Shown: positions 1,152-59,550, counted from the stretch's first letter. The stretch: DNA of 64,000 nt from an uncultured Holophagales bacterium (GCA_963842525.1 CAWJGT010000014.1:1-64000); one strand, 5' to 3'. Numbers and translations are program-made. The notes: a model not told the origin generated them from the letters alone.

Positions 1152-2593
1152 AACCTCACCCCCTGTCCCCCTCTCCCATCTCCCACCCGCCCTATCCCCG
1201 GGAGAGGGGGAACGTAGTTGAGGCGATTTGGCGAGGTCGGGCACAGCCGCTCCGCATGCGTCCCCCCTCTCCCGGCGGGGGGTGGAAGGGAGATGGGAGA
1301 GGGGGACAGGGGGTGAGGACCCTCAGCCTAGCCCTTCTCCTAAGCCTGCTATTCCTCCCCGTCTTCGCCCATGCCGAGACCGTCGCTCTCACCGGAGCCA
1401 CCGTCCACACGATGGGGCCTGCCGGGAAGATCGAAGGCGGCACGGTGGTGATCGAGAACGGTCGCGTCCGCGCGGTCGGCAAGGACGTGGCGGTGCCGGC
1501 TGGGGCGCGGCGGATCGATGTCCGCGGCAAGGTGGTGACTCCGGGCCTGTTCGACTCCATCAGCCGCATCGGCCTCGTCGAGGTGGGCGCCGTCGAGGGC
1601 TCGAACGACGCCGGCGTCGACGGCGACCGCTACACCGCAGCCTTCAGCGTGGCGGACGGGATCAACCCCCGCTCGACGCTGATCCCGATCAACCGCGTCA
1701 TGGGAGGCCTGACCCGCACGCTGGTGATGCCGAGCAACGGCGACACGCTGATCGGTGGCCAGGGCGCCCTCATCCACCTGGGCACAGAGCAGGGCGACTA
1801 CCTGCTGCGCTCCCCCGCCGCCATGCTCGCCGTGCTGGGCGAGGGTGGCGCGCAGCGAGTGGGCGGCGCGCGCGGGGCCGCCATGCTCCGCCTGCGTGAG
1901 GTCTTCCAGGACGCCCTCGACTTCGCCAGGAACCGGACCGCTTTCGAGAGCGGCGACCGGCGCGACTACTCCCTGTCGCGGCTCGACCTGGAGGCGTTGC
2001 AGCCGGTCGTCCGCGGCGAGATGCCGCTGGTGGTGGGCGTCGAGCGCGCGAGTGACATCGAAGCCCTGCTGCGACTGGCAAAGGAATACCGGCTGAAGCT
2101 GGTGCTGGCGGACGCCGTGGAGGCCTGGATGGTGGCCGACCAGCTCGCGGCGGCAAAGGTGCCGGTGCTGGTCAACGCCCTGAACAACCTGCCCGGCAGC
2201 TTCGAACGGCTCGGCGCGACCCTGGAGAACGCCGCCCGGCTGCACAAGGCCGGCGTGACGGTCGCCTTTATGACGGGCGACGCGCACACCGCCTTCAACC
2301 TCCGCCAGGCCGCCGGCAACGCCGTGACCTACGGCATGCCCTGGGACGCGGCCCTCGCCGCCATGACCACCGTTCCCGCCCGCATCTGGGGGATCGACGA
2401 CAGCTACGGCACCCTGGAGCCCGGCAAGGACGCCGACGTCGTGGTCTGGGACGGCGACCCGCTGGACGTCACCTCCACCGCCGAGCACGTCTTCATCCGC
2501 GGCGTCGAAGTCCCGATGGAATCCCGGCAGACCAAGCTGAGGGACCGCTACAAGGACCTCGGCAGCGGCCCGCCGGCGTACAGCAAGCCGTAG
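1148..2593 (+). CDS. Amidohydrolase-family protein, probable non-catalytic partner, secreted; start either ATG 1148 (coupled) or GTG 1313
   Basis: VTPGLFDSISRIG (HxH lost) and GTLEPGKDADVVVWDGDP; signal peptide MRTLSLALLLSLLFLPVFAHA from 1313; ATGA overlap with upstream stop. Confidence 0.85.
   Translation: MKPHPLSPSPISHPPYPRERGNVVEAIWRGRAQPLRMRPPSPGGGWKGDGRGGQGVRTLSLALLLSLLFLPVFAHAETVALTGATVHTMGPAGKIEGGTVVIENGRVRAVGKDVAVPAGARRIDVRGKVVTPGLFDSISRIGLVEVGAVEGSNDAGVDGDRYTAAFSVADGINPRSTLIPINRVMGGLTRTLVMPSNGDTLIGGQGALIHLGTEQGDYLLRSPAAMLAVLGEGGAQRVGGARGAAMLRLREVFQDALDFARNRTAFESGDRRDYSLSRLDLEALQPVVRGEMPLVVGVERASDIEALLRLAKEYRLKLVLADAVEAWMVADQLAAAKVPVLVNALNNLPGSFERLGATLENAARLHKAGVTVAFMTGDAHTAFNLRQAAGNAVTYGMPWDAALAAMTTVPARIWGIDDSYGTLEPGKDADVVVWDGDPLDVTSTAEHVFIRGVEVPMESRQTKLRDRYKDLGSGPPAYSKP
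1154..1318. repeat. Palindromic REP/MITE-like element, family A (CCTCACCCCC..CCCTCTCCC / GGGAGAGGG..GGGGGTGAGG)
   Basis: Long terminal inverted repeats plus inner hairpins; closely related copy at 28634-28797. Confidence 0.9.
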
Positions 2594-48821: not shown

Positions 48822-49054
48822 GATTCTGGCTCTGAAGCGACAGAGCCGCCGGCAGCGTCGCGCGGGTGGCGGGTGTCCATGAGAAAAGATTGGGCTCTCG
48901 CCGGGGCTCTGGCGACCTCCCCACGGCCTGAACTTTCACGCGCCGGCTGAATTCTCCCACGCGCTAAGTTATCTGGAGGTGTGGCCACGGCCGGGCCGAG
49001 CCTCCTCTGACGCATAAGAACTTCCCGTGTGCCTGAGAGGTTTTTGGGAAGTTG

Positions 49055-49253
49055 AGCCCCGCAGGGGCGGACGGAATTAGCCCGGGCATTCATGCCCGGG
49101 AAGGGAAGGCCAAATCCTCCATCCAGCCCCGTCAGGGGCGGCAGGAGGCCTGTCAGCCGGATTCCTGTCGCCCCTGGCGGGGCTCCGGGAATTTTGGATG
49201 CCTGATTCCCGGGCATGAATGCCCGGGCTAATCCCGGCCGCCCCTGCGGGGCT
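49055..49253. repeat. Nested palindromic element, family C (AGCCCCG..AGGGGCG), REPIN-like
   Basis: Outer arms AGCCCCGCAGGGGCGG..TTAGCCCGGGCATTCATGCCCGGGA and their inverse; inner related hairpin. Confidence 0.8.
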
Positions 49254-49572
49254 GATTTCCAGACACCCCTGAAACGCCAAGCGCACGTAAGGTTGGATGC
49301 GATCTGCCCAACCTCCTTCGCTTGTCGAGCATGACGTAGTTGCGACTTTCGCGGCACAGGGCTCCAGAATGCTTCTCCAAGTGCCTCGCCGGCCTTGACG
49401 CAGGTTAGAAAGAGGTGTAGAGTGCCGCTAAGTCGAAGAGGATAAGCACCTTGCACGCTCGACACCCTGGGACCGGCCGTGGAGTCAACCCGCAGGTTTT
49501 GTCGTATTGGCCTGCGAGCGGGGTGACGGCGAATATGTGAGGCAGGGGTTCGCCGCAAGCTAGGTACGAGCG

Positions 49573-50304
49573 ATGCTAACTGATGGGGGAATGATGAACC
49601 GGCGACCACGTGAAGTCATACTCGCTGCTCGGATCTCCTTCTACCGTTTTGAAGAGAACCAGAGCGGTTACCGCGACAAGGTCGAGTTTAAGAACCTTGA
49701 GGCTCCAAGAGACCACTTAGAGCGAGAGGTGCGACGGACAATCGAATCAGATTTGCCGGCTGAGCTCGAGGCTATTTATGGGCTCCGAGTAAGAACGCGG
49801 TTCATTACCACTCGGCCAGGGAGCGTTATTGCCTTTTTCGCGGTGGTGGTTGAGGCGCTGGGTATTTTTTCAAGCTACTCGGACTTTTTCGAGAGTATAT
49901 CTCTTGTGCGTAAACATTCGGCCGCTCTCCTAGAGCGCCTAATGGAGGAGCGGTACACGCCAGGTCCGAGCCTAACCTCAGATGTTTCGGTGACTGTCGA
50001 ATACCCACGCGTGCCTGATCCTGATGATCTTCATCCGGGTAGGCGGTTTTGGAAGAGATTCGGTCCTGAAGCTGACATGATGTTCGCCGCCGGTTGGAGT
50101 GGCTCACAGCCCCGAGTTCGGCGTGATGGCCTATTCTGGTGGTTGGTGATATGTAACCTCCTTTTTGCCGTTGCTCTAGGGGCCCTTGTCGCGGCAGCAG
50201 TCGTGAGGACATACTTCACTGTTGAACGTGGCCTCCCAGGAGGCTTTCACAAAAGCTCAGGAGCTGCCGAACCGGCAGCCGCATCGGAGAGGATCCAGAA
50301 CTAG
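49573..50304 (+). CDS. Low-GC hypothetical membrane protein, probable integron gene cassette
   Basis: Atypical composition, C-terminal TM, attC-like site 17 bp downstream. Confidence 0.65.
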   Translation: MLTDGGMMNRRPREVILAARISFYRFEENQSGYRDKVEFKNLEAPRDHLEREVRRTIESDLPAELEAIYGLRVRTRFITTRPGSVIAFFAVVVEALGIFSSYSDFFESISLVRKHSAALLERLMEERYTPGPSLTSDVSVTVEYPRVPDPDDLHPGRRFWKRFGPEADMMFAAGWSGSQPRVRRDGLFWWLVICNLLFAVALGALVAAAVVRTYFTVERGLPGGFHKSSGAAEPAAASERIQN

Positions 50305-50321
50305 TCAGTATGCGAGTCGGC

Positions 50322-50389
50322 GGCGAACCCCCGCTTCCACCGGACGGCCGGCTTCGCCGTCCGCACGGTGAAGCGTCAAGGCGTTGGCC
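50322..50389 (+). mobile_element. attC-like recombination site
   Basis: R'' GGCGAAC ... R' GTTGGCC; CGCTTCCACCG / CGGTGAAGCG with an unpaired C; central GC hairpin. Confidence 0.7.
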
Positions 50390-50428
50390 GTCTGCCTGCC
50401 GCCGGCGCTGAATGCCGCGCTGAGGGGC

Positions 50429-50806
50429 AGTGGTCCCGCGGTAGTGCCAAGGTTCCCCGCGGGACTATGGACGTTCACCGCAGCGCCGCGCAGTGGTCCC
50501 GCGGCACCGGCAAGGCTCACCGCGGGACCATGGACGTTCACCGCGGCGACTCGAAGTGGTCCCGCGGCAGCGGCAAGGCTCACCGCGGGAGCATGTAGCT
50601 TCCCCGCAGTGGGGTGAAGTGGTCCCGCAGCACCGCCGGAGCACACCGCGGGACCATGCAAGGTCACCGCGGCGCGGTCCAATGGTCCCGCAGGACCGCC
50701 AGTTCACACAGCGGGACCGTGCACGTGCACCGCGGGGAGGTCAAGTGGTCCCGCGGGACCGCCAGGCGGCACCCCGGGACCATACGCGTCCACCGCAGGA
50801 CCGTCA
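50429..50806. repeat. 18 x 21-bp array organised as 6 x 63-bp higher-order units
   Basis: A(G/A)TGGTCCCGC at 50429, 50492, 50555, 50618, 50681, 50744; phase kept with no indels. Confidence 0.92.
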
Positions 50807-50877: not shown

Positions 50878-51201
50878 CTAGGCCTCAGGACGATAGCTTT
50901 CAGGCTCGCAGCGGCTCTCGACTGCCAGCAGGTCCTCCACTTCCCGAGCGGGGCCCGCCTGCTCGGGATCCGGGAAGACGCCGCGAAAAAAGTTCGCGGG
51001 GGGAATACCTGCGGCCTCCAGAACCTCCAGAACCTGGGTCATCTTAAGATGCCGGGTGCCAGCGAAGAGCCGGCTGAGATAGCCACTATGCTCGCTGAAC
51101 CCCATGCGGCGCTCGATCTCGCGGTTTGACAGACCGCTCAGGTGGAGGGCGACCTGAAGCAGACGACGCACTCTTGCCTCGTGCTCCTCGGCGGAAGTCA
51201 T
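50878..51201 (-). CDS. XRE-type HTH regulator
   Basis: LSNREIERRMG..GYLSRLFAG..LK..QVLEVLEAAGIPPANFF; RBS GAAGGGG. Confidence 0.8.
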   Translation of the reverse strand: MTSAEEHEARVRRLLQVALHLSGLSNREIERRMGFSEHSGYLSRLFAGTRHLKMTQVLEVLEAAGIPPANFFRGVFPDPEQAGPAREVEDLLAVESRCEPESYRPEA

Positions 51202-51398
51202 CAGTTTGTCCCCTTCAGGAAAGTCACAAAAAACTGGCCGGGCCGGACTACTCTCGACAATCCCCGTGGGCAGGCCCCAGGAGGGTCAGCTCCAGAGGGA
51301 CCCGGGGAGATGCCGACCACCGCACGGGAGAGGCTGCCCGCCTTGATCTCCCCCAAACCTCGCCCGACCCGACCAGACTCAAAACCGGTCCTCATCGC

Positions 51399-51695
51399 TC
51401 AAGATGGGAAAGCAGTCTTCATCTCGAGCCTGTATGCGACTGCTGGTGTGAAGCCTATAAGTCCGGCAAATTCCACGGGATCGTTGCGTGCAATTTCCGC
51501 CATCGCTTCTCGCGCACGTAACCCTGCCTCAGCGGGTGACTGGAAGACCAGCCAATCCACATCGGTCGCGTGAAGCACAGCTCCATGCTCACCCTCGTCA
51601 AGCTCGACTTCAACGATCTCGCCCTCGATTTGAATCCATCCTTGAGACTCCTGCGGGAGCAACTCTTCGTTGCCTACTTGGGGCGGCGCGATCAT
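51399..51695 (-). CDS. Possible small hypothetical protein
   Basis: Acidic, protein-like composition; purine-rich upstream sequence; no recognisable family. Confidence 0.35.
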   Translation of the reverse strand: MIAPPQVGNEELLPQESQGWIQIEGEIVEVELDEGEHGAVLHATDVDWLVFQSPAEAGLRAREAMAEIARNDPVEFAGLIGFTPAVAYRLEMKTAFPS

Positions 51696-51863
51696 CTCCT
51701 TTTGATGCTCCTCTCTACCGTGGCGAGGCCGCTACGACCCACGCAGGCGAGAGCAGCGACTGTTCCTCCGGGAGGCTCAGCATCCGAATTGGATGTTTTG
51801 GCCTTCTGTCCCGAAAACGTGCCCTGCGGCTACTTACTTGATGGATGGAGGGTCCTTTCGATC

Positions 51864-53351
51864 ATGGAGAATCGGCTTGCGGCTAGGGAAGAGACCACTC
51901 GGCAGAATTCTTCACAGATTGGCTTTGCCCTGGATCTCCTGATGCGCGGGCACGGCTGGACCGGGAAGAAGCTCGCTGAGGCCGCGGGCATCGCCCCCAC
52001 CACGATTTCCGCTTTTGTCAACGATGGCTTGAGCCGGGAGCGCCTGGAGGAGCTGGCCGAGCTCATGGGCCTGAGCCCGCAAGAGGTCGAGCGCGCCGTC
52101 CTCGCCGCCCGGCTTGTCCTGCCTCCCCAACCTTCTCCCCGCACACCGGTGGACCCCACACCCGAGGAGCGCCGCATCGCCGAGAAGGCCGCGGCCCTGG
52201 CTGCCTGCGAGGTGGCGGACCTCGTCCTGGACCTGCGCCTCCGGGAGATCCGGCAGGAAAACACTCGCCGTGATCTTGAAGAAGGAAGGAGGCTCGCCCA
52301 GGAGCTGAAGACCTACACGTCCGCCGACCAGCGCGTCCTGATCGAAGGAGCGCCGGACTACCAGCACTGGGGATTGGCCGTCGCCCTGTGCGAGGACAGC
52401 GAGAAAGCGACGCCGCGAAACCCAGATCACGCGCTGGCGCTGGCCGAGCTGGCCCTCTTCGTTGCCGAGCACGTGGAGGACAGCGCCTTCAAGCCCCGCC
52501 TCCAGGGCTGGTGCACCGGGGTTGGCGCGAACGCTCAACGAGTGCTCGGCCGCGACCTTCCCGGCGCTGCCACAACCTTTGCCCGCGCCTGGCGGCTCTG
52601 GCAAGAAGGTGAGGACTCGGCGGGCCTTCTCTCCAAAGCGCACCTACTCCATTTGGAGGCCTCACTACGCAGGGCTCAGCGGCTCTTTCCCAAGGCGCTG
52701 AAGCTGCACGACGACGCCCTGATGCTGGCCCGGCCCGAAGAGGAAGGCTCCATCCTGCTCAATAAAGCTGTCACTCTCAAGGAAAACGGCGATCCTGAGG
52801 ACGCCCTCCAGATTTTGGCACGGGCGGCCCGGCTCATCGACGCCGAACGGCAGCCACGGCAGAGATGTGTCCTGCGATTCAACCAGGCATCGAACCTGCT
52901 CCTGCTGGGTCGAGCCGCGGAGGCGGCACCGATCGTGGCCGAGGTCCGGGAGTTGGCCGGGCGGTTGCGCAACGCCGAGGACCTGGTGAGAACTCTATGG
53001 CTGGAAGGGAACTGCGCTGCCGGCCTGGGACAGAGTGAGGAGGCTCTCACCAGGTTGGAGCAGGTGCGGCACGAGTTCCAGGTGCGGGACAACCCCTTCG
53101 ACTACGCATTGGCGAGCCTGGACGTGGCGCTGCTCCACCGGCAGGAAGGCCGTTTTGTGGAAGTCAAGGTTCTGGCCGACCAGATGCTTGAGGTCTTCAA
53201 GGCTCAGAAGGTGGACCGGGAAGCCATTGCTGCCGTGATCCTGTTCCGCGAAGCCGCCCAAAAGGAGCAGGTCACCGTGGGGCTGGTCCGGCGTCTCCAG
53301 GACTACCTCTCCAAGGCGAGGAGCGATCCACAGATCCGCTTCGAGGGATAG
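51864..53351 (+). CDS. XRE-HTH + TPR-like repeat protein (candidate receptor 1)
   Basis: GWTGKKLAEAAGIAPTTISAF HTH, followed by Ala/Leu TPR-like helical repeats. Confidence 0.8.
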   Translation: MENRLAAREETTRQNSSQIGFALDLLMRGHGWTGKKLAEAAGIAPTTISAFVNDGLSRERLEELAELMGLSPQEVERAVLAARLVLPPQPSPRTPVDPTPEERRIAEKAAALAACEVADLVLDLRLREIRQENTRRDLEEGRRLAQELKTYTSADQRVLIEGAPDYQHWGLAVALCEDSEKATPRNPDHALALAELALFVAEHVEDSAFKPRLQGWCTGVGANAQRVLGRDLPGAATTFARAWRLWQEGEDSAGLLSKAHLLHLEASLRRAQRLFPKALKLHDDALMLARPEEEGSILLNKAVTLKENGDPEDALQILARAARLIDAERQPRQRCVLRFNQASNLLLLGRAAEAAPIVAEVRELAGRLRNAEDLVRTLWLEGNCAAGLGQSEEALTRLEQVRHEFQVRDNPFDYALASLDVALLHRQEGRFVEVKVLADQMLEVFKAQKVDREAIAAVILFREAAQKEQVTVGLVRRLQDYLSKARSDPQIRFEG

Positions 53352-53379
53352 TTGTTCGGCTGCTGACTTGCGAAGAGGA

Positions 53380-53402
53380 GGGAGGGGTTCGTTACCCCTC
53401 CC
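53380..53402. terminator. Hairpin between convergent TPR gene and peptide gene
   Basis: GGGAGGGGT-TCGTT-ACCCCTCCC. Confidence 0.55.
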
Positions 53403-53417
53403 AAGAAAGTTGTGGCC

Positions 53418-53744
53418 TCAACTTCCGGGCAAACAGCCGCCGTGGGGATCAATCCCGCAGCCTTCACCCGTTGTGGGCTGCGAGACCGCGGCGCAGCCGC
53501 CGTTGGGGTCGAGATTGCAGCCCTCATCCGTTGTGGGCTGCGCGACTGCCGCGCAGCCGCCATAGGGGTCGATCATGCAACCATGCTCCGTCCAGACGGC
53601 CGTGAGGGTGCCCCAAAGGCGTGCGAGGATGTCTAACATGTGCGCCTCGGAAGAGGACCGGCTTGGCGTTGCCCAGGCGGGTGCGCACAACAGGGTGGTG
53701 ACCAGGAAGACGAGGAGGATACGGGCAAGTCGGCGATGGGACAT
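53418..53744 (-). CDS. Secreted 108-aa propeptide with three GCxxDPxGGC cores
   Basis: RBS AAAGGAG; signal peptide ending APAWA; 20-aa repeats CMIDPYGGC, CNLDPNGGC, CGIDPHGGC. Confidence 0.85.
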   Translation of the reverse strand: MSHRRLARILLVFLVTTLLCAPAWATPSRSSSEAHMLDILARLWGTLTAVWTEHGCMIDPYGGCAAVAQPTTDEGCNLDPNGGCAAVSQPTTGEGCGIDPHGGCLPGS

Positions 53745-53886
53745 ACCGGCTCCTTTGGCGGAGGCGGCCTTCAGGACGGCCGCCATGGCCGCGAAGACGC
53801 CCCCGATCCCTCCATGGTGCCCGGACCCGGTGAATTTATCCAACTCGGGCCCACAGCGGTGTGGGCCAAGGCGGTAAGAGAAAGCC

Positions 53887-55386
53887 ATGGCGCGCGACGA
53901 GAGCGAGCACGACGATCAGCACGAGAAGATCCTTTTCGGCGACTTCATCTCCTTTCTTCGCTGGCTGCCGGGGAATTGGTCCCAGGCCCACTTCGCCAGG
54001 AAGGCCGGGATCGACCGCAGCGACCTCTACTCCTATGAAAAAGGAAAAAAACGGCCGCGGGAAGCGACGTTCCAGTTGATCCGGTCGGCAGCCGGCGTGC
54101 CCCAGCGGCTCATTGGTTTTCTCCGCTGGTGCCACTGGCTGGTCCGCAGGGCGCTCGCCCTGGGCCAAGTGGACACCGCTCCGGCCACGGCGCCCCTGCG
54201 TGAAGCGACCCGGGCGGCCGTGTGGGACATCGTCGAGCGGGCGCTGGCCCTGGCCCGCGCGGAGCAAGCGCTGTTGCGGAACGCTCCGCGCCGGCTCGGC
54301 CCTCCGACACAGGAAGACCAACAGCGGGTTTCCGCGCTGTTCGAGAAGCTGAAGAGCTATCCACGGCAGAAGCGGCAGCTTCTCGTTCAGGGCGCGCAGG
54401 CGTACCGTGATCCTTTGCTCTGCCTACATATTTGCCAGAAAAGCGAGGACGCCGCAGCAAACGATCCGGGTGAGGCCCTGGTGCTGGCCGAGTTGGCCCT
54501 GTTCGTTGCCGATCATGTGGAGGAGGGCGTCTTCAAGCCCAGCCTCCAAGCCTGGTGCACCGGGGTCCTCGCAAACGCTCAACGAGTGATTGGCCGGGAC
54601 CTTCCTGGCGCTGCCACAACCTTTGCCCGCGCCTGGCGGCTCTGGCAAGAAGGTAAGGACTCGGCGGGCCTTCTCTCCAAAGCGCACCTACTCCATTTGG
54701 AGGCCTCACTACGCAGGGCTCAGCGGCTCTTTCCCAAGGCGCTGAAGCTGCACGACGACGCCCTGATGCTGGCCCGGCCCGAAGAGGAAGGCTCCATCCT
54801 GCTCAATAAAGCTGTCACTCTCAAGGAAAACGGCGATCCTGAGGACGCCCTCCAGACTTTGGCACGGGCGGCCCGGCTCATCGACGCCGAACGGCAGCCA
54901 CGGCAGAGATGTGTCCTGCGGTTCAACCAGGCGGCGAACCTGCTCTTGCTGGGCCGGGCCGGGGAGGCGGCGCCGATCGTGGCCGAGGTGCGGGAGCTTG
55001 TCGAGCGGCTGCGCAACGAGGTGGACCTCGTCAGAACTATATGGCTGGAAGGGAACTGCGCCGCCGGGCTGGGCCGGCGTGAGGAGGCGCTCACCAAGCT
55101 GGAGCAGGTGCGGCACGAGTTCGAGGTGCGCGAGAACCCCTTCGACTATGCACTGGCAAGTCTGGACCTGGCGATGATCTACCGCGAGGAGGGCCGCTTC
55201 GCGGAAATCAAGGCTCTGGCCGACCAGATGCTGGAGATCTTCAAGGCCCAGAAAGTACACCGGGAAGCCATTGCTGCGGTGATCCTGTTCAAGGAAGCCG
55301 CCGAGAAGCAGCAGGTCACCGCGGAGATGGTCCAGCGGCTCCAGAAGCAGCTCTCCAAGGTGAGGTGCGAAGTAGTGCCACCATAG
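53887..55386 (+). CDS. XRE-HTH + TPR-like repeat protein (candidate receptor 2)
   Basis: WSQAHFARKAGIDRSDLYSYEKGKKRP HTH; C-terminal two-thirds paralogous to 51864-53351. Confidence 0.85.
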   Translation: MARDESEHDDQHEKILFGDFISFLRWLPGNWSQAHFARKAGIDRSDLYSYEKGKKRPREATFQLIRSAAGVPQRLIGFLRWCHWLVRRALALGQVDTAPATAPLREATRAAVWDIVERALALARAEQALLRNAPRRLGPPTQEDQQRVSALFEKLKSYPRQKRQLLVQGAQAYRDPLLCLHICQKSEDAAANDPGEALVLAELALFVADHVEEGVFKPSLQAWCTGVLANAQRVIGRDLPGAATTFARAWRLWQEGKDSAGLLSKAHLLHLEASLRRAQRLFPKALKLHDDALMLARPEEEGSILLNKAVTLKENGDPEDALQTLARAARLIDAERQPRQRCVLRFNQAANLLLLGRAGEAAPIVAEVRELVERLRNEVDLVRTIWLEGNCAAGLGRREEALTKLEQVRHEFEVRENPFDYALASLDLAMIYREEGRFAEIKALADQMLEIFKAQKVHREAIAAVILFKEAAEKQQVTAEMVQRLQKQLSKVRCEVVPP

Positions 55387-55442
55387 ATCCGAGGGCGGGG
55401 CTGCGACCCGAACGGCTAGTTCTACTTTGGCTTTGTAGATTT

Positions 55443-55518
55443 GCTGGGAGCGCCGGCATCCCTGCCGGCCGGCTAACCAAAGACGAAGAAGGCCGGCAAG
55501 GATGCCGGCGCTCCCAGC
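55443..55518. repeat. REP-like doublet, family B-like (GCTGGGAGCGCCGGCATCC..)
   Basis: ~28-bp near-perfect inverted arms. Confidence 0.8.
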
Positions 55519-55540
55519 GGGGTCTGCAGGAAAGTCGCTG

Positions 55541-55866
55541 TCAACTTCCAGGCACGCAGCCGCCGTTGGGATCGATTTTGCAGCCCTCATCCGTTGTGGG
55601 TGCCGAGACTGCCTCACAGCCGCCATGCGGGTCGAGCATGCAGCCATGATCCGTCGTGGGCTGCGATGCCGCGCAACCGCCGTGTGGGTCGATGTGGCAG
55701 CCTTCCTCCGACCAGACGGCCGTGAGCGAACCCCAGAGGCGTGCGAAGATGTCGAGCAAATGCGCCTTGGAGGAAGACCGGCCTGGCATTGCCCAGGAGG
55801 GTGCGCACAACAACAGGGTGGCGACCAGGAAGACGAGGAGGATACGGGCAAGTCGCGATGGGACAT
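55541..55866 (-). CDS. Secreted propeptide 2 with three GCxxDPxGGC cores (1-bp deletion near codon 4)
   Basis: Paralog of 53418-53744; cores CHIDPHGGC, CMLDPHGGC, CKIDPNGGC; RBS AAAGGAG. Confidence 0.8.
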
Positions 55867-56118
55867 GCTGGCTCCTTTGGACGTGGCCGTCGAAGGAATA
55901 GCATAACCCCAGGAGGGTCCTATGTATTGTTCCCGGATACCACCACCAGAGCAGTGGGACAAAGTCGAGAAAGGTCACCGCAGGACGTTCCGCTGTACCC
56001 ACCACGGTCTACCCTTCCGAGTGTTCTGCGGGAAGCCAGCAGTGGCGCTGGTGGGTGCCGATCCGCGCTGCGCGGAGCACTTCATCCAAAGTAGGCGCTA
56101 ACTTTCGCCGGAGGGAAA

Positions 56119-56259
56119 CCTGGGAGCGCCGGCGTCCCGCCGGCCCGGAGCTTCGCCGGCCGCTTGGGCACCGTCAGACACCACCACCGCTCCAGCTCTA
56201 GGCGGCCCCATCTCCTCCACGGCCTCGTGGAGAGCCGGCGGGACGCCGGCGCTCCCAGG
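56119..56259. repeat. REP-like doublet, family B-like
   Basis: CCTGGGAGCGCCGGCGTCCCGCCGGC and its exact inverse. Confidence 0.8.
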
Positions 56260-56429
56260 GCCACCCTCCCCGACCCGGCTGTCACACAGGTGGACGAGGC
56301 AAAGTGAGCGCCTATGCCCGCCAGCTCCCCGGGAGAGGGGCTCGACCGCGTTGTACGCGGTCCCCGGTTGCCGTAAAATGTCTTCCGGGTTCGCGATAAA
56401 TACGAATCCCGTCGAAAGGGAGGTGTCCA

Positions 56430-56693
56430 ATGACCATGTTCCGCAAGGTCCTGACTGCGAGCGCTGTCGCCATTGTGCTTGCCTCCGTGCCCTCGCATCT
56501 AGCGGCACAGGATGGGCCAGCCGCGACCGAGGTACGCGCCTCGATGCTCGGGTGGTTTACCAGTATCTGGGGTGATCTCACCGCCTGGCTCGCTGGCGAA
56601 GTGGCGCCGGCTCCGCCTCAGCCCGAATGGCTTTCTCAGAGCCAAGCCGACAACGGGTGCATTGTCGACCCGCACGGCGGTTGCGGCGGTTAA
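56430..56693 (+). CDS. Secreted propeptide 3 with one C-terminal core, DNGCIVDPHGGCGG
   Basis: RBS GGAGG; signal peptide; shared WGxLTA motif; same core consensus. Confidence 0.85.
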   Translation: MTMFRKVLTASAVAIVLASVPSHLAAQDGPAATEVRASMLGWFTSIWGDLTAWLAGEVAPAPPQPEWLSQSQADNGCIVDPHGGCGG

Positions 56694-56742
56694 AGCAAGG
56701 GCTTCTCTCGGTAGAAGCTTTTGGGCTATCATCCACGGGCTT

Positions 56743-57768
56743 ATGGCCCAACACCCGGGAGTGGGCGTGTGCTTGCCACCCTTCAGCAGCCCGGCGGCTG
56801 CGCGCCTCAGCTTGACCAACCAGCCGAACCCGAGTCGGATTCTTGCCGTCGCCGAGTACGGTTACAGCCTGAGGTTCGTGGATCCTCCTGCCGGGGTTGA
56901 GTGGTGCCGGGTCGCCGCAGACGTGTTCACCGACACCCTGGACCCGAGCCTACGGGGGCGGGTGGTTGGCTACTTCGGCAACAGTCTTCGCGTGGTGGGC
57001 AACTACGATGAAGCCAGGGAGGTTCTCCGTCTCGCGCTCGAGGTCCTTCCTGGCGACCCGCTCCTCCTCGAATTCAAGGCGTCCCTGCACCGAGACGTCC
57101 GTCAATTTGAAGTAGCTACCGAATGCCTGCGCGACGCCGCCGGGATCCAGCGGGCTTGTGGTGACGTGGCAGGGTTCGCCCGTACGCTGCTCATTACGGC
57201 CCAGGTGATGGACCTCGCTGGAAAATCGCAGGGAGCGGCCGGGCTTTGCCTCGAAGCCTTGGACCTTTTGGACAGCGCTGTTGACCCAAGCCGCAATCTC
57301 CTGCGGACTGCCGTCCAGAATTATGCGGGATACATGTGCCATGCTGGAAAGCCGCTGGCGGCACTGCGGGCTCTGCGAACGGCGGAGCCTTTGCTCGCTA
57401 GCGAGGAGCCGTACTTTAAACTTCGTCTCGAGTGGTTGTTCGGCCAGATCGCTGCCGCACTCGGCGACGAATCGGCTGAGCGTCGATTGGAGTGCGTCCG
57501 GCAAGAGTTCGCGAAAGGTGGCCTTTACCATGAGGCAGCTATCGCTACGCTCGACCTGGCCAGGTACTTCGTGCTCCGCCGGGACCCCCGCGCTGCACCC
57601 GTGGCGCTGTCAGTTGCCCCACTTCTCGAGTCTTTGGGGATCGATCGCGATGCTCGGGAAGCGAAGCTTCTCGGTGAGCTCGCGATGGCTGATTCGAACG
57701 TCGAGCACCTTATCGCCGAGCTCTATGAGGCGATCGTGTGGCGCCCCGCGGCGCGGCAGGTCGCCTAA
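56743..57768 (+). CDS. TPR-like protein without HTH (candidate receptor 3); start uncertain
   Basis: LRLEWLFGQIAAALG..LECVRQEF..AAIATLDLA aligns by eye with VRTLWLEGNCAAGLG..LEQVRHEF..YALASLDVA. Confidence 0.75.
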   Translation: MAQHPGVGVCLPPFSSPAAARLSLTNQPNPSRILAVAEYGYSLRFVDPPAGVEWCRVAADVFTDTLDPSLRGRVVGYFGNSLRVVGNYDEAREVLRLALEVLPGDPLLLEFKASLHRDVRQFEVATECLRDAAGIQRACGDVAGFARTLLITAQVMDLAGKSQGAAGLCLEALDLLDSAVDPSRNLLRTAVQNYAGYMCHAGKPLAALRALRTAEPLLASEEPYFKLRLEWLFGQIAAALGDESAERRLECVRQEFAKGGLYHEAAIATLDLARYFVLRRDPRAAPVALSVAPLLESLGIDRDAREAKLLGELAMADSNVEHLIAELYEAIVWRPAARQVA

Positions 57769-58133
57769 CGACCGGCAGCGCCACCGCTTTCGTCTTCGTC
57801 GTTCAGCCGCGGCCGAAGCCCGTAGCGTTCCATTGCGCGAAGGAAGCGCGTATCAAAGTCGTCGTCCGCGTCGCGGAATCCCTCTTTCCCATAGATGCTG
57901 GCGAAGAAATCGGCTGGCTTCAGGCCAAGCGCCAGGAGCACGGTAAAGATGTGCTCGGCGGTCACGGCGATGCGCCCCTTGAAGAGGTGGGTGAAATAGC
58001 CGTCGGCCCTGCCGGTCCTGGCCGCAAGCTCCTTGAGGTCAACTCCGCTCCGGTCCACCGCCTGCTGCAGGGCCTCGCGGAGCACTTTCGTCATCTCCTT
58101 TGCCTCGCGCTGAACTCGGGCTGGGCTGCGCAT
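57765..58133 (-). CDS. XRE-type HTH regulator, probably leaderless
   Basis: DLKELAARTGRADGYFTHLFKG..LGLKPADFF; similar to 50878-51201. Confidence 0.8.
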   Translation of the reverse strand: MRSPARVQREAKEMTKVLREALQQAVDRSGVDLKELAARTGRADGYFTHLFKGRIAVTAEHIFTVLLALGLKPADFFASIYGKEGFRDADDDFDTRFLRAMERYGLRPRLNDEDESGGAAGR

Positions 58134-58139
58134 GTGCCT

Positions 58140-58222
58140 AGGATACGCCCCCCGCGCGGGGACCGTCAACTGAAGCGACTTCAATTTGGGGTGTTGACAA
58201 TCTCAGTTTGCTGTCTTATCCT
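58140..58222. promoter_or_regulatory. Back-to-back divergent sigma70 promoters
   Basis: Plus: TTGACA(58194)-N17-TATCCT(58217). Minus: TTGACG(58169)-N18-TATCCT(58145), 6 nt before ATG 58133. Confidence 0.7.
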
Positions 58223-58374: not shown

Positions 58375-58689
58375 ATGGTTACTCAGCAAGCAGTCGAGAC
58401 GAGTCTGAAGCCGGAGCGGGTGCAGGAGCCGTTCGCGACCGGAGCGGCGGCGCTCACTGCCGGAGGGCTGGTCATCCAGCTCAAGGCGGAGCGGGTGCAG
58501 GAGCCCACTCTGGCCGCGGCGGGAGCCACCGTCACCTACACCTACGAGCTCGCGGTCAATCAGCCCCAGGTTGTGGAGATCGAGCTTCCCATGGCGATCG
58601 TCACCCTTCTGGGTAGTCCCGCCTGGGGGGCTCCCGAGGTCGTGCCCGCTGCGGGCTGTCCCGCAGGAAAGGAGGAAAACAATGCCTAG
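58375..58689 (+). CDS. Hypothetical protein with duplicated LKxERVQEP motif
   Basis: RBS AAAGGAG; two motif copies 75 bp apart. Confidence 0.65.
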   Translation: MVTQQAVETSLKPERVQEPFATGAAALTAGGLVIQLKAERVQEPTLAAAGATVTYTYELAVNQPQVVEIELPMAIVTLLGSPAWGAPEVVPAAGCPAGKEENNA

Positions 58690-59098
58690 AGCCAGTTCGT
58701 TTGCCCACGTCATACGGGACTGGGAGAGTCTGCTCGCTGCCCTCAACCAGCATGCAGAGCTCCAGGTCACTCTCGAAACCGAACGTCTGGCCCTGGAGAC
58801 CGACTTGACCGAGGCGCGGGCTCTCAAGACGCAGCAGGAGACACAGAATGCTGGCCGGCAGGAGCTGACGCAGCGGATCAAGACGGTGGTGGCCCACGGC
58901 AAGGACGTGGCCATTGCGATCCGGGCCGTGACCAGGGGCAAGATCGGTTTCCGCAACGAGCGGCTGGTCCACTTCGGAATGACTCCGTTCCGCAAGCGGG
59001 TGCGCAAGCTGGCGGTCAAGCCGGAGGGCGAGGAACCGGGCGACGAGCCCACCGGGCCGGAAGCTTCGGCGGGTGGAGCCAAGACGCTCGACTCCTGA
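58682..59098 (+). CDS. Small helical hypothetical protein (paralog A)
   Basis: RBS AAGGAGG; SFAHVIRDWESLL...GKIGFRNERLVHFGMTPFRKR. Confidence 0.8.
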   Translation: MPRASSFAHVIRDWESLLAALNQHAELQVTLETERLALETDLTEARALKTQQETQNAGRQELTQRIKTVVAHGKDVAIAIRAVTRGKIGFRNERLVHFGMTPFRKRVRKLAVKPEGEEPGDEPTGPEASAGGAKTLDS

Positions 59099-59114: not shown

Positions 59115-59145
59115 TGGGGGCGTGCTCCGGCACGCCCCCTTTTTT
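59115..59145 (+). terminator. Rho-independent terminator
   Basis: GGGGGCGTGC-TCCG-GCACGCCCCC followed by a T run. Confidence 0.75.
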
Positions 59146-59181
59146 GGAAGCCAACGCCGTTTCTATAGAAAGGAGAGGATC

Positions 59182-59550
59182 GTGTCGAAGCCGAATTCAT
59201 TCCGGGCTGTGCTCGCAGACTGGGAAAACCTGCTCAGCGCCGTCGGAGCTACGTCGTACGACATTCCTGACATCGCTTCCATCCGGAACGAGCTGGAGGA
59301 TGCTGTCCAGAAGGCCCGGGCGCACAAGATCCAGCAGGTTGCGCTCCAGATCGCCAGCCAACAATCGACGCGCCAGGTGAACGAGGCCTTGGCGCACGGC
59401 CGGGAGGTGGTCTTGCGAATGCGCAGCTTTCTGAAGGGTCGTCTCGGTCCCCACAACGAGGAGCTGCTCCGCTTCGGGGTCGCCCCAATCCGCAAGCGCG
59501 GGTCGCGCCACACGCTTCTGCCGCGGGCCGTGGAATCCCAGGTCAACTGA
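59182..59550 (+). CDS. Small helical hypothetical protein (paralog B)
   Basis: GTG after AAGGAGAGG; SFRAVLADWENLL...GRLGPHNEELLRFGVAPIRKR. Confidence 0.8.
   Translation: MSKPNSFRAVLADWENLLSAVGATSYDIPDIASIRNELEDAVQKARAHKIQQVALQIASQQSTRQVNEALAHGREVVLRMRSFLKGRLGPHNEELLRFGVAPIRKRGSRHTLLPRAVESQVN

What the first reader, a model, noticed from the sequence alone, without database searches (positions are those of the whole stretch)
50878..58133. Candidate RRNPP-like peptide-signalling system: three TPR receptors, each paired with a secreted Cys-loop propeptide
Seen in sequence: three homologous TPR-like proteins (51864-53351 and 53887-55386 with an N-terminal XRE HTH; 56743-57768 without one). Each lies directly next to a small gene encoding a signal peptide and the same core, G-C-x-[ILV]-D-P-[HNY]-G-G-C, so the pairing is 3 of 3 (two convergent, one co-directional). 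Two related stand-alone XRE genes bracket the locus. Established: an HTH+TPR or TPR-only receptor beside a small exported propeptide defines the RRNPP family (PlcR/PapR, NprR/NprX, Rap/Phr, AimR/AimP), characterised in Bacillota and their phages with short linear peptides. Inference: this is an analogous receptor-ligand system in a high-GC diderm using disulfide-closed peptides. I do not recognise it as a named system.
Basis: partly seen in the sequence, partly recalled or inferred. Interest (0 to 1): 0.92.

Follow-up and report, generated by a model that had tools for sequence, protein, structure and literature searches.

The report
Paired secreted peptides and TPR regulators
A soil Acidobacteria genome carries dozens of gene pairs, three of them here, each joining a small exported repeat peptide to a cytoplasmic TPR regulator, which looks like Gram-positive peptide signalling in a Gram-negative phylum but is untested.

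Summary
The window holds two XRE-HTH+TPR proteins, one TPR-only protein, three adjacent signal-peptide propeptides with GCx[ILV]DPxGGC cores, and two flanking small XRE genes. Peptides 1 and 2 each carry three tandem cores. Peptide 2 has a 1-nt deletion that puts its ATG out of frame.

Genome-wide (9.95 Mb, Thermoanaerobaculia) there are 99 TPR-family loci and 64 peptide-family ORFs. 56 of 64 peptides lie within 600 bp of a TPR locus, against 2.6% for random segments. In another genus the figure is 14 of 14.

The shared core is G-x-x-[ILM]-D-P-[NDH]-G, and 22 of 64 ORFs stop right after it. The Cys bracket marks one sub-clade and goes with the HTH fusion. Most other paralogs carry a zinc-type anti-sigma N-domain instead.

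The predicted receptor is a TPR superhelix. Rap and NprR are among its best structural matches, but so are unrelated TPRs. No sequence membership in RRNPP was found, no named family fits the peptides, and I found no paper describing this.

My best reading, at about 50%, is an RRNPP-like peptide-receptor module. Binding, processing and re-import are all inferred.

The parts
50878..51201 (-). Small stand-alone XRE-like HTH gene (107 aa), divergent from receptor A
   Evidence: ORF. Weak HTH_3/HTH_31 hits, E 0.0075-0.014 and below cut-off. 33% identical to the other small XRE, E 8e-11. The genome has 22 paralogs, at least 12 of them directly beside TPR-family loci by coordinates.
51864..53351 (+). 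Receptor A (P0001, 495 aa): XRE HTH, long linker helix, and a TPR superhelix from about residue 153 to 485
53418..53744 (-). Propeptide A (P0004, 108 aa): signal peptide, LWxxLTxxW helix, and three cores CMIDPYGGC, CNLDPNGGC, CGIDPHGGC. Convergent with receptor A (66-bp gap).
   Evidence: AAAGGAG lies 6 nt before the ATG. Translation. Cores at 53553-53582, 53493-53522 and 53433-53462. 60-bp tandem repeat. No Pfam or NCBIfam family. A low-confidence model (pLDDT 58.8) predicts helices at 2-20 and 33-53 and short hairpins at the cores.
53887..55386 (+). Receptor B (P0002, 499 aa): XRE HTH + TPR. The TPR half is 76% identical to receptor A; the N-terminal ~133 residues show no similarity to it.
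   Evidence: Pfam HTH_3 25.1 bits and TPR_12 36.2 bits. BLASTP aligns only residues 134-488 of A with 141-495 of B.
55541..55866 (-). Propeptide B: three cores CHIDPHGGC, CMLDPHGGC, CKIDPNGGC. A 1-nt deletion just after the ATG separates the start and ribosome-binding site from the coding frame, so it is a pseudogene, an assembly error or an unusual start.
   Evidence: Sequence. DNA alignment to peptide A shows a single 1-nt gap after ATGTCCCATCG. The only in-frame start is GTG 56005, 50 codons upstream of the signal-peptide n-region. Terminator-like hairpin at 55509-55492.
56430..56693 (+). Propeptide C (87 aa): signal peptide, W-rich helix, and one core CIVDPHGGC followed by GG-stop. Upstream of and co-directional with receptor C.
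   Evidence: GGGAGG lies before the ATG. Core at 56655-56684. Peptide-profile E 1.9e-20.
56743..57768 (+). Receptor C (P0003, 341 aa): TPR-only paralog without HTH or zinc motif
   Evidence: Only TPR hits in Pfam, best TPR_12 at 24.3 bits. 28% identity to P0001 residues 167-454, E 3e-9. 138.9 bits against the family profile. The start at 56743 is not verified; the upstream part of the open frame overlaps peptide C in another frame.
57765..58184 (-). Small stand-alone XRE-like HTH gene (139 aa), convergent with receptor C and overlapping its stop by 4 nt
   Evidence: ORF. HTH_31 E 0.0024, below cut-off. The same peptide / TPR-only / convergent small XRE layout recurs at C34:232441-234877, C1:559410-561264, C24:109119-111549, C4:251081-253419 and C9:210127-213048.

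Best explanation
The locus holds three copies of a two-gene signalling module that is expanded to roughly 60-100 copies in this Thermoanaerobaculia genome.

Proposed mechanism, step by step:
1. The small gene encodes a Sec-exported propeptide. This is inferred from its n/h/c signal sequence.
2. After signal-peptide cleavage, a conserved amphipathic LWxxLxxxW helix is followed by one to three copies of the unit G-C-x-[ILV]-D-P-x-G-G-C.
3. Periplasmic or extracellular proteases release these units as short peptides (inferred).
4. In this sub-clade the two cysteines are oxidised to a 9-residue loop (inferred).
5. The peptides re-enter cells (inferred) and bind the concave groove of the TPR superhelix of the neighbouring cytoplasmic protein (inferred).
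6. Binding changes the activity of the N-terminal XRE helix-turn-helix. For the TPR-only form it would act on the separately encoded small XRE protein.

What is shown is the gene pairing, the domain architecture, the fold and the family-wide conservation of the peptide core. Everything from export onward is inference by analogy with RRNPP systems. In the wider family the same sensor is fused to a zinc-type anti-sigma domain, so the module appears to be a common peptide sensor with interchangeable outputs.
For: 1. Pairing in this genome. 56 of 64 peptide-profile ORFs (E <= 0.01) lie within 600 bp of one of 99 TPR-family loci, against 2.6% of 20,000 random 300-bp segments. 62 of 99 loci have such a peptide. 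Ten more weak peptide hits (E 0.03-3.5) sit beside loci listed as unpaired, by my reading of coordinates.

2. Pairing elsewhere. In G065 (same family, other genus) all 14 of 14 peptide matches lie next to one of 34 TPR matches. All 9 of 9 best loci from the three same-family genomes have a Cys-loop peptide gene.

3. Peptide anatomy fits a processed C-terminal signal. 62 of 64 precursors carry 1-4 cores (121 in all) with consensus [NAE]-G-[CSG]-x-[ILM]-D-P-[NDH]-G, and 22 of 64 ORFs stop directly after the G. [ILM]DP[NDH]G followed by a stop occurs 24 times against 0.69 expected.

4. Tandem pheromone repeats are documented in Rap-Phr propeptides (PMC11343458, passages).

5. The receptor is soluble, with HTH_3 + TPR_12, and the model is confident (pLDDT 92.8). 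RapJ-PhrC is the Foldseek top hit. NprR, RapI, phage Rap, AimR and PlcR rank 7-30 of 48,161 chains.

6. N223 and R226 are each kept in 58 of 61 paralogs, N340 in 49 of 61 and R376 in 51 of 61. That fits a common ligand feature, though their place in the groove was not checked.

7. Output-domain swapping with a constant sensor. Of 56 near-full-length paralogs, 15 have an HTH and 14 of those pair with Cys-loop peptides. 24 have H-x3-4-C-x2-C and 17 of those pair with linear peptides.

8. Opp-type binding proteins (3), Omp85 (6) and DsbA-like proteins (4) exist in the genome.
Against: - No binding, processing, disulfide or import data exist.
- No RRNPP-specific sequence family was hit.
- In a diderm, a Sec-exported peptide reaches only the periplasm. 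Crossing the outer membrane twice is an extra unproven step.
- The strongly conserved LWxxLxxxW helix has no counterpart that I know of in RRNPP propeptides (recalled) and is unexplained.
- 37 of 99 TPR loci have no peptide at E <= 0.01. 8 of 64 peptide hits are not near a family locus at the 600-bp criterion, one of them 748 bp away.
- Peptide 2 of this very locus looks defective as assembled.
- No recurrent target operon was found next to the modules.
- Adjacent genes that duplicate together would show pairing whatever their functional link, so pairing alone does not say that the peptide is the ligand.
Confidence: 0.5

Rival explanations
1. The peptide is the output, not the input. The adjacent HTH/TPR protein is a local regulator that senses something else and controls expression of a secreted effector peptide, for example a small disulfide-looped antimicrobial, a protease inhibitor or a metal- or calcium-binding peptide.
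For: - Regulator genes commonly sit beside the genes they control (established knowledge).
- The peptides are exported, Asp-rich and Cys-bracketed.
- No import or binding evidence exists.
- No other conserved target genes were found near the modules, so the peptide gene itself is the only constant neighbour.
Against: - About 60-100 separately regulated near-identical effector peptides in one genome, each with its own regulator, is hard to rationalise.
- The conserved part is a very short C-terminal unit, and 22 of 64 ORFs stop right after it.
- There are no export, immunity or modification genes nearby.
- TPR-only and anti-sigma-fused paralogs are not DNA-binding regulators of a neighbouring gene.
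Confidence: 0.22
2. Export-coupled control. The TPR domain binds the unexported precursor in the cytoplasm, for example through its conserved LWxxLxxxW helix. Export of the precursor then frees the regulator. This would resemble TPR secretion chaperones that double as co-activators, or FlgM-type control (both recalled, not tested).
For: - The most conserved non-core element is an amphipathic helix just after the signal peptide (helix 33-53 in the low-confidence model), which a signalling model does not explain.
- Both partners are made in the same cell.
- This model needs no re-import across two membranes.
Against: - Sec substrates are normally exported quickly, and no precedent for a Sec-coupled switch of this kind is known to me (recalled).
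- It does not explain why the conserved unit is a repeated C-terminal DPxG motif, or why it is Cys-bracketed in one clade.
Confidence: 0.12
3. The small genes are RiPP precursors with multiple cores that are modified by enzymes encoded elsewhere. The TPR proteins would serve as recognition, chaperone or regulatory partners.
For: - Multi-core precursors with a conserved leader-like segment.
- Many paralogous precursors per genome, as in some RiPP families (recalled).
Against: - No modifying enzyme, protease or transporter family recurs within 4 kb of the 76 locus clusters.
- The precursors have Sec signal peptides, which is unusual for RiPP leaders (established knowledge).
- The cores are conserved rather than hypervariable.
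- No NCBIfam or Pfam RiPP precursor model was hit.
Confidence: 0.05

Closest known systems
RRNPP/RRNPPA peptide quorum-sensing systems of Bacillota (Rap-Phr, NprR-NprX, PlcR-PapR, PrgX, AimR-AimP, Rgg/ComR)
   Same: - Two adjacent genes: a cytoplasmic TPR receptor, often with an N-terminal XRE-type HTH, and a small exported propeptide whose conserved part is C-terminal.
- Output domains vary on a common TPR sensor (Rap has no HTH).
- Paralogs are expanded within genomes.
- Rap and NprR structures are among the best matches.
- The family definition is as quoted in PMC10075063 (abstract) and PMC12700828 (passages).
   Different: - A different phylum and cell envelope (Acidobacteriota, diderm).
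- No sequence-family hit.
- Cys-bracketed cores that could be cyclised, whereas RRNPPA pheromones are described as short unmodified peptides (PMC12998947, abstract).
- A conserved W-rich helix in the propeptide.
- An anti-sigma-type output domain in most paralogs.
- A far larger copy number (99 loci).
Tandemly duplicated Phr propeptides of phage phi3T and phi105 Rap-Phr systems
   Same: One propeptide carries internal and C-terminal copies or pseudo-repeats of the pheromone, released by extracellular proteases (PMC11343458, passages). Here there are 1-4 cores per precursor in this genome and up to 6 in a relative (L018).
   Different: Phr repeats are linear penta- to heptapeptides of Bacillus. 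Here the unit is G-x-x-[ILM]-DP-x-G, with Cys brackets in one clade, and processing is unknown.
Zinc-binding (ZAS) class I anti-sigma domains: ChrR, RslA, RsiW, DdvA
   Same: Paralogs outside the window have an invariant H-x24-27-H-x3-4-C-x2-C N-domain. Its profile hits RslA 3hug_B (E 1.6e-4), ChrR 2q1z_B (2.7e-3) and DdvA 8rlz_A (0.015). Pfam zf-HC2 is hit in 4 of 15.
   Different: - The domain is fused to a soluble TPR sensor instead of a membrane anchor or cupin domain.
- Only about 1-4 of 99 loci lie next to an ECF sigma gene.
- Most members have H-x4-C spacing.
- The three window receptors lack this domain.
Generic peptide-binding TPR superhelices (LGN/Pins, APPBP2 degron receptor, APC/C subunits, MalT domain III)
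   Different: These are eukaryotic scaffold proteins or a STAND sensor domain. None is paired with a secreted propeptide gene, and there is no NTPase domain here.

Membership tests
RRNPP/RRNPPA | Cytoplasmic receptor with a TPR-type ligand-binding domain | tested here: met
   TPR_12 above cut-off in P0001 and P0002, and TPR hits in P0003. Confident all-helical TPR superhelix model. No signal peptide or membrane segment by eye.
RRNPP/RRNPPA | N-terminal XRE-type HTH (PlcR, NprR, AimR, Rgg types) or another effector domain (Rap) | tested here: met
   HTH_3 above cut-off in P0001 (28.4 bits) and P0002 (25.1 bits). P0003 has none but has a small XRE gene next to it.
RRNPP/RRNPPA | Adjacent small gene for an exported propeptide | tested here: met
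   3 of 3 in the window (one with a frameshifted start). 56 of 64 genome-wide against 2.6% random. 14 of 14 in G065. The signal peptide was judged by eye, as no predictor was available.
RRNPP/RRNPPA | Homology to known RRNPP receptors (sequence or structure) | tested here: inconclusive
   No RRNPP-specific Pfam or NCBIfam model was hit at E <= 1. RapJ is the top Foldseek hit (E 4.8e-6) and NprR, Rap, AimR and PlcR rank 7-30, but unrelated TPR proteins score as high.
RRNPP/RRNPPA | Occurrence in Bacillota and their mobile elements | tested here: not met
   Named homologs are Thermoanaerobaculia or Acidobacteriota MAG proteins. Omp85 is present. The family is described as one of Bacillota in PMC12700828 (passages) and PMC10075063 (abstract).
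RRNPP/RRNPPA | Mature peptide binds the TPR groove and switches receptor activity | not testable with these tools
   This needs ITC or MST, EMSA, or a structure.
RRNPP/RRNPPA | Re-import of the peptide by an oligopeptide permease | tested here: inconclusive
   Three SBP_bac_5 (Opp/Dpp-type) binding proteins are in the genome. No link to the modules is shown.
ZAS-type anti-sigma factors (applies to paralogs outside the window) | H-x3-C-x2-C zinc motif with an upstream His or Cys ligand in an N-terminal anti-sigma domain | tested here: met
   Invariant H, H, C, C in 15 of 15 aligned paralogs. PDB anti-sigma hits at E 1.6e-4 to 0.015. zf-HC2 in 4 of 15. Most have H-x4-C spacing. The window proteins lack the motif.
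ZAS-type anti-sigma factors (applies to paralogs outside the window) | Co-encoded cognate ECF sigma factor | tested here: not met
   66 Sigma70_r4_2 matches in the genome. By coordinates only C34:46288 is directly beside a family locus, and 3 more lie within about 1-4 kb.
RiPP precursor | Co-located modifying enzyme, protease or exporter | tested here: not met
   No enzyme family recurs within 4 kb of the 76 locus clusters.

The most novel reading that the evidence does not exclude
Thermoanaerobaculia (Acidobacteriota, diderm) possess a very large peptide-signalling family that is either independent of RRNPP or only extremely distantly related to it.

- Sec-exported propeptides release tandem G-x-x-[ILM]-DP-x-G peptides, disulfide-cyclised in one clade.
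- These peptides are sensed by a common cytoplasmic TPR module.
- The module is wired to interchangeable outputs: an XRE HTH, a separate small XRE protein, or a zinc-type anti-sigma domain.

This would be the first cytoplasmic-receptor peptide quorum sensing in a Gram-negative phylum. It would also be the first peptide-gated soluble anti-sigma factor family, with 60-100 channels per genome.
Probability: 0.4. Interest if true: 0.92.

Novelty: new variant of a known kind. Interest (0 to 1): 0.8.

Why it matters
Peptide signalling through cytoplasmic TPR receptors is described as a trait of Bacillota and their mobile elements (PMC12700828 passages; PMC10075063 abstract). Proteobacteria and Actinobacteria are described as typically using enzyme-made small molecules (PMC10075063, Introduction passage).

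A conserved, massively expanded propeptide/TPR pairing in Acidobacteriota would extend that logic to a major, poorly understood soil phylum. It would offer dozens of orthogonal peptide-receptor pairs for specificity studies and synthetic biology. It would also link peptide sensing to anti-sigma control.

Even if the signalling reading is wrong, this is a well-defined pair of uncharacterised families. The peptide profile gave at least 326 metagenomic hits, all that are named being 'hypothetical protein'. The association signal is very strong and can be tested directly with synthetic peptides.

Tried and rejected
- **Complex prediction** (receptor A residues 150-495 with propeptide A residues 27-108, both as alignments). 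No verdict, score 0.00, controls not run. This counts neither for nor against binding.
- **The look-up of sequencing runs**. No RNA holder was listed, and one soil DNA run held 0.12 of the words. **Read laying** on it gave seven short contig pieces. None covers 55640-56224, so the peptide-2 frameshift could be neither confirmed nor refuted, and nothing can be said about expression.
- **Operator search**. Only short GC-rich inverted repeats were found, and no candidate is shared between modules.
- **Promoter and terminator scan**. Nothing decisive, apart from a hairpin after peptide 2.
- **Neighbourhood clustering**. No recurrent target operon, enzyme, transporter or protease was found.
- **PADLOC**. 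Only weak HTH hits for P0002, so there is no defence-system assignment.
- included a wrongly framed reference for peptide 2 (window:55541-55851:-), so those rows are void. Pfam and PADLOC were redone in the correct frame. NCBIfam was not redone for peptide 2.
- **ESM Atlas**. Only 'hypothetical protein' clusters, commonest phylum Acidobacteriota.
- **Twin-arginine export.** Considered and dropped, because RR occurs in some n-regions but not family-wide (by eye).
- **Lipoprotein signal.** Considered and dropped, because there is no lipobox and the Cys in the h-region is not conserved.
- **Literature**. I found no paper joining RRNPP with Acidobacteria or Thermoanaerobaculia, and none describing these peptides. 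Supplementary tables of the RRNPP_detector paper, which list detected systems by taxon, could not be seen and might bear on this.

Full report
**1. What is in the window**

ORF listing and translation confirm the gene order:
- small XRE gene, 50878-51201 (-)
- receptor A (P0001), 51864-53351 (+)
- propeptide A (P0004), 53418-53744 (-)
- receptor B (P0002), 53887-55386 (+)
- propeptide B, 55541-55866 (-)
- propeptide C, 56430-56693 (+)
- receptor C (P0003), 56743-57768 (+)
- small XRE gene, 57765-58184 (-)

Pfam gives HTH_3 and TPR_12 above the curated cut-offs for P0001 and P0002. P0003 gets only TPR hits, and the peptides hit no family. NCBIfam adds nothing.

P0001 and P0002 are 76% identical over their C-terminal 355 residues, with a long nearly identical block. 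Their N-terminal ~133 residues do not align at all, so the same sensor carries two different DNA-binding heads. P0003 is a distant paralog of the TPR part (28% identity, E 3e-9). The two small XRE proteins are related (E 8e-11).

Propeptides A and C have Shine-Dalgarno-like sites and a typical n/h/c signal sequence by eye. A and B each carry three tandem cores, and TRF finds 57-60-bp repeats there. C carries one core.

Propeptide B differs from A by a single 1-nt deletion right after the ATG. As assembled, its signal-peptide/core frame therefore has no start at the ribosome-binding site. I could not check this against reads.

**2. More than chance**

Counts in the six-frame translation of the 9.95-Mb genome, against expectation from residue frequencies:

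| Motif | Observed | Expected |
|---|---|---|
| GC.[ILVM]DP.GGC (strict) | 10 | 0.006 |
| C..DP.G.C | 49 | 4.0 |
| [ILM]DP[NDH]G followed by a stop | 24 | 0.69 |

**3. The locus is three copies of a very large paired family**

P0001 finds 119 places in its own genome. A profile of the TPR part defines 99 loci in 76 clusters. A profile built from the 23 Cys-loop precursors finds 64 ORFs at E <= 0.01.

Of these 64, 56 lie within 600 bp of a TPR locus, against 2.6% of 20,000 random 300-bp segments. 62 of 99 loci have such a peptide. Ten further weak peptide hits sit beside loci that one search listed as unpaired, by my reading of coordinates.

Two layouts dominate among the 56 pairs:
- peptide upstream and co-directional: 33
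- peptide convergent downstream: 14

Several family loci sit at contig ends, and identical copies occur on different contigs (C9/C18 and C8/C10). This points to recent duplication.

**4. The peptide family is wider than the Cys loop**

All members share a signal peptide and an amphipathic W-rich segment (LWxxLxxxW). They then carry 1-4 units with consensus [NAE]-G-[CSG]-x-[ILM]-D-P-[NDH]-G. There are 121 units in 62 of 64 precursors.

22 of 64 ORFs stop directly after the final G. 23 have Cys-bracketed units (C-x-x-DP-x-G-x-C). A third type, with a longer loop (C-I-D-P-x-G-x-P-x-x-C), sits in a six-locus cluster at C9:424-441 kb.

A low-confidence model of propeptide A (pLDDT 58.8) predicts the two helices and a small hairpin at each core, with floppy linkers.

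**5. The receptors have interchangeable N-terminal domains**

Ten co-directional paralogs showed no HTH in Pfam. Their N-termini share an invariant H-x24-27-H-x3-4-C-x2-C pattern.

A profile of this region hits solved anti-sigma factors: RslA (E 1.6e-4), ChrR (2.7e-3, including the upstream His) and DdvA (0.015). Pfam zf-HC2 is hit in 4 of 15, and two family loci pass its cut-off in the genome scan.

The 56 near-full-length paralogs divide as follows:

| N-terminal domain | Paralogs | Paired peptide |
|---|---|---|
| XRE HTH | 15 | 14 with Cys-loop peptides, none with linear |
| Zinc motif | 24 | 17 with linear peptides, none with Cys-loop |
| Neither, or truncated | 17 | mixed |

Small XRE paralogs number 22 in the genome. 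At least 12 lie directly beside family loci, mostly TPR-only or zinc-motif ones, which suggests a split version of the HTH fusion. Only about 1-4 loci are near an ECF sigma gene, out of 66 sigma matches.

**6. Taxon and spread**

Named homologs of both partners are 'hypothetical', 'TPR' or 'HTH' proteins of Thermoanaerobaculia or Acidobacteriota MAGs. The ESM Atlas agrees.

Among 151 genomes of the class, 16 have a TPR match at E <= 1e-10. These include all 3 other genomes of the same family, each with 72-98 first-look candidates.

In loci from those three genomes, 9 of 9 carry a Cys-loop peptide gene. Of 18 loci from other families, 1 had a profile hit (G125, six AGAGLDPNG units) and 2 more (G133) showed single DPxG peptides by eye.

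In G065, 14 of 14 peptide matches adjoin one of 34 TPR matches.

The Cys-loop profile was found in only 4 of 401 Acidobacteriota genomes sampled. Three belong to this family, counting the window's own genome, and one is a weak hit elsewhere. Only 12 candidates per genome were scored.

**7. Fold**

The AlphaFold2 model of P0001 is confident (pLDDT 92.8, pTM 0.80). It shows an HTH, a 49-residue helix, and then about eight helical hairpins.

- Foldseek's best hit is RapJ bound to PhrC (E 4.8e-6, TM 0.65 on the target), followed by LGN and other Raps.
- NprR-NprX (19.0), RapI (18.8), a phage Rap with peptide (18.2), AimR (16.2, 15.9), MalT domain III (16.2) and PlcR (15.8) all fall within the top 30 of 48,161 chains.

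The fold is therefore that of peptide-binding TPR superhelices. RRNPP proteins are as good a match as any, but not a better one.

Across 61 paralogs, N223 and R226 are each kept in 58, N340 in 49 and R376 in 51. I infer that these may contact the invariant part of the ligand, but I could not map them onto the groove.

**8. Mechanism**

The most economical reading is an RRNPP-like module. The steps would be export, proteolytic release of the repeated C-terminal units, oxidation in the Cys clade, re-entry, binding in the TPR groove, and a change in the output domain.

- Shown: pairing, architecture, fold and core conservation.
- Inferred: every biochemical step.
- Consistent background: the genome has Opp-type binding proteins, Omp85 and DsbA-like proteins. 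Tandem pheromone copies are known in Rap-Phr systems (PMC11343458, passages).
- Against: the non-specific fold match, the double-membrane problem, the unexplained conserved helix, unpaired loci, and the point that co-duplicated neighbours would pair whatever their function.

The rivals are the peptide as regulated output, export-coupled sensing of the precursor, and a RiPP. They are weighed in their own sections.

**9. Comparison and novelty**

The system works like RRNPP on paper, but I do not file it as a member. No sequence homology was detected, the taxon criterion is not met, and the ligand chemistry and the anti-sigma outputs differ.

Six literature searches found nothing that links RRNPP to Acidobacteria or describes these peptides. 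Passages were also read in five papers (and the abstracts listed). Supplementary tables were closed.

I rate it a new variant of a known kind, with a substantial chance of being a distinct and larger signalling family.

Noticed in passing
window 50422-50798: A 63-bp unit is repeated 6.0 times (77% matches), between the ORF 49573-50304 and the small XRE gene. It would encode a 21-residue repeat in any open frame. Its purpose is unknown.
   Followed up: no
window 58571-59098 (+) and 59122-59550 (+): Two paralogous small genes lie just downstream of the locus and hit no Pfam family. Relatives of the second recur near 6 of the 76 TPR-locus clusters in the genome, so this may be a further accessory family.
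   Followed up: partly
window 58375-58689 (+): This ORF carries a repeated 'K(A/P)ERVQE' motif. By eye it resembles a family (representative C34:231885-232394) found near 5 TPR clusters. It has no Pfam hit, and it may not be a real gene.
   Followed up: no
window 49000-50500: G+C drops to 0.58, against 0.65-0.72 around it. The ORF 49573-50304 there has no Pfam family.
   Followed up: no
window 53418-53744: The public gene call for propeptide A is a 73-residue form (P0216) that starts at an internal Met and lacks the signal peptide. The ribosome-binding site at the upstream ATG and the conserved signal peptide in relatives favour the 108-residue form.
   Followed up: partly
G000 C9:424157-441065: A cluster of six family loci has upstream peptides of a third type: a single C-I-D-P-x-G-x-P-x-x-C loop near the C-terminus. 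These fall below the E <= 0.01 threshold of the Cys-loop profile.
   Followed up: partly
G000 contig ends (C9:1-6000, C18:1-5700, C8:2-1215, C10:31745-33249, C7:319-1506, C1:2-4887): Family loci sit at several contig ends, and identical peptide genes occur on two contigs (C9/C18 and C8/C10). Recent duplicates apparently break the assembly. Several copies contain in-frame stops or frameshifts.
   Followed up: no
G000 C9:403765-404823 and C1:375359-376348: Two of the three Opp-type binding-protein genes lie within a few kb of family loci (C9:405445-409879 and C1:371807-373258). This may be coincidence.
   Followed up: no
L018 (G125:C433) 2065-2481 (-): A same-order relative has a propeptide with six near-identical AGAGLDPNG units, the last ending the ORF. 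It lies next to a TPR paralog at a contig end.
   Followed up: partly
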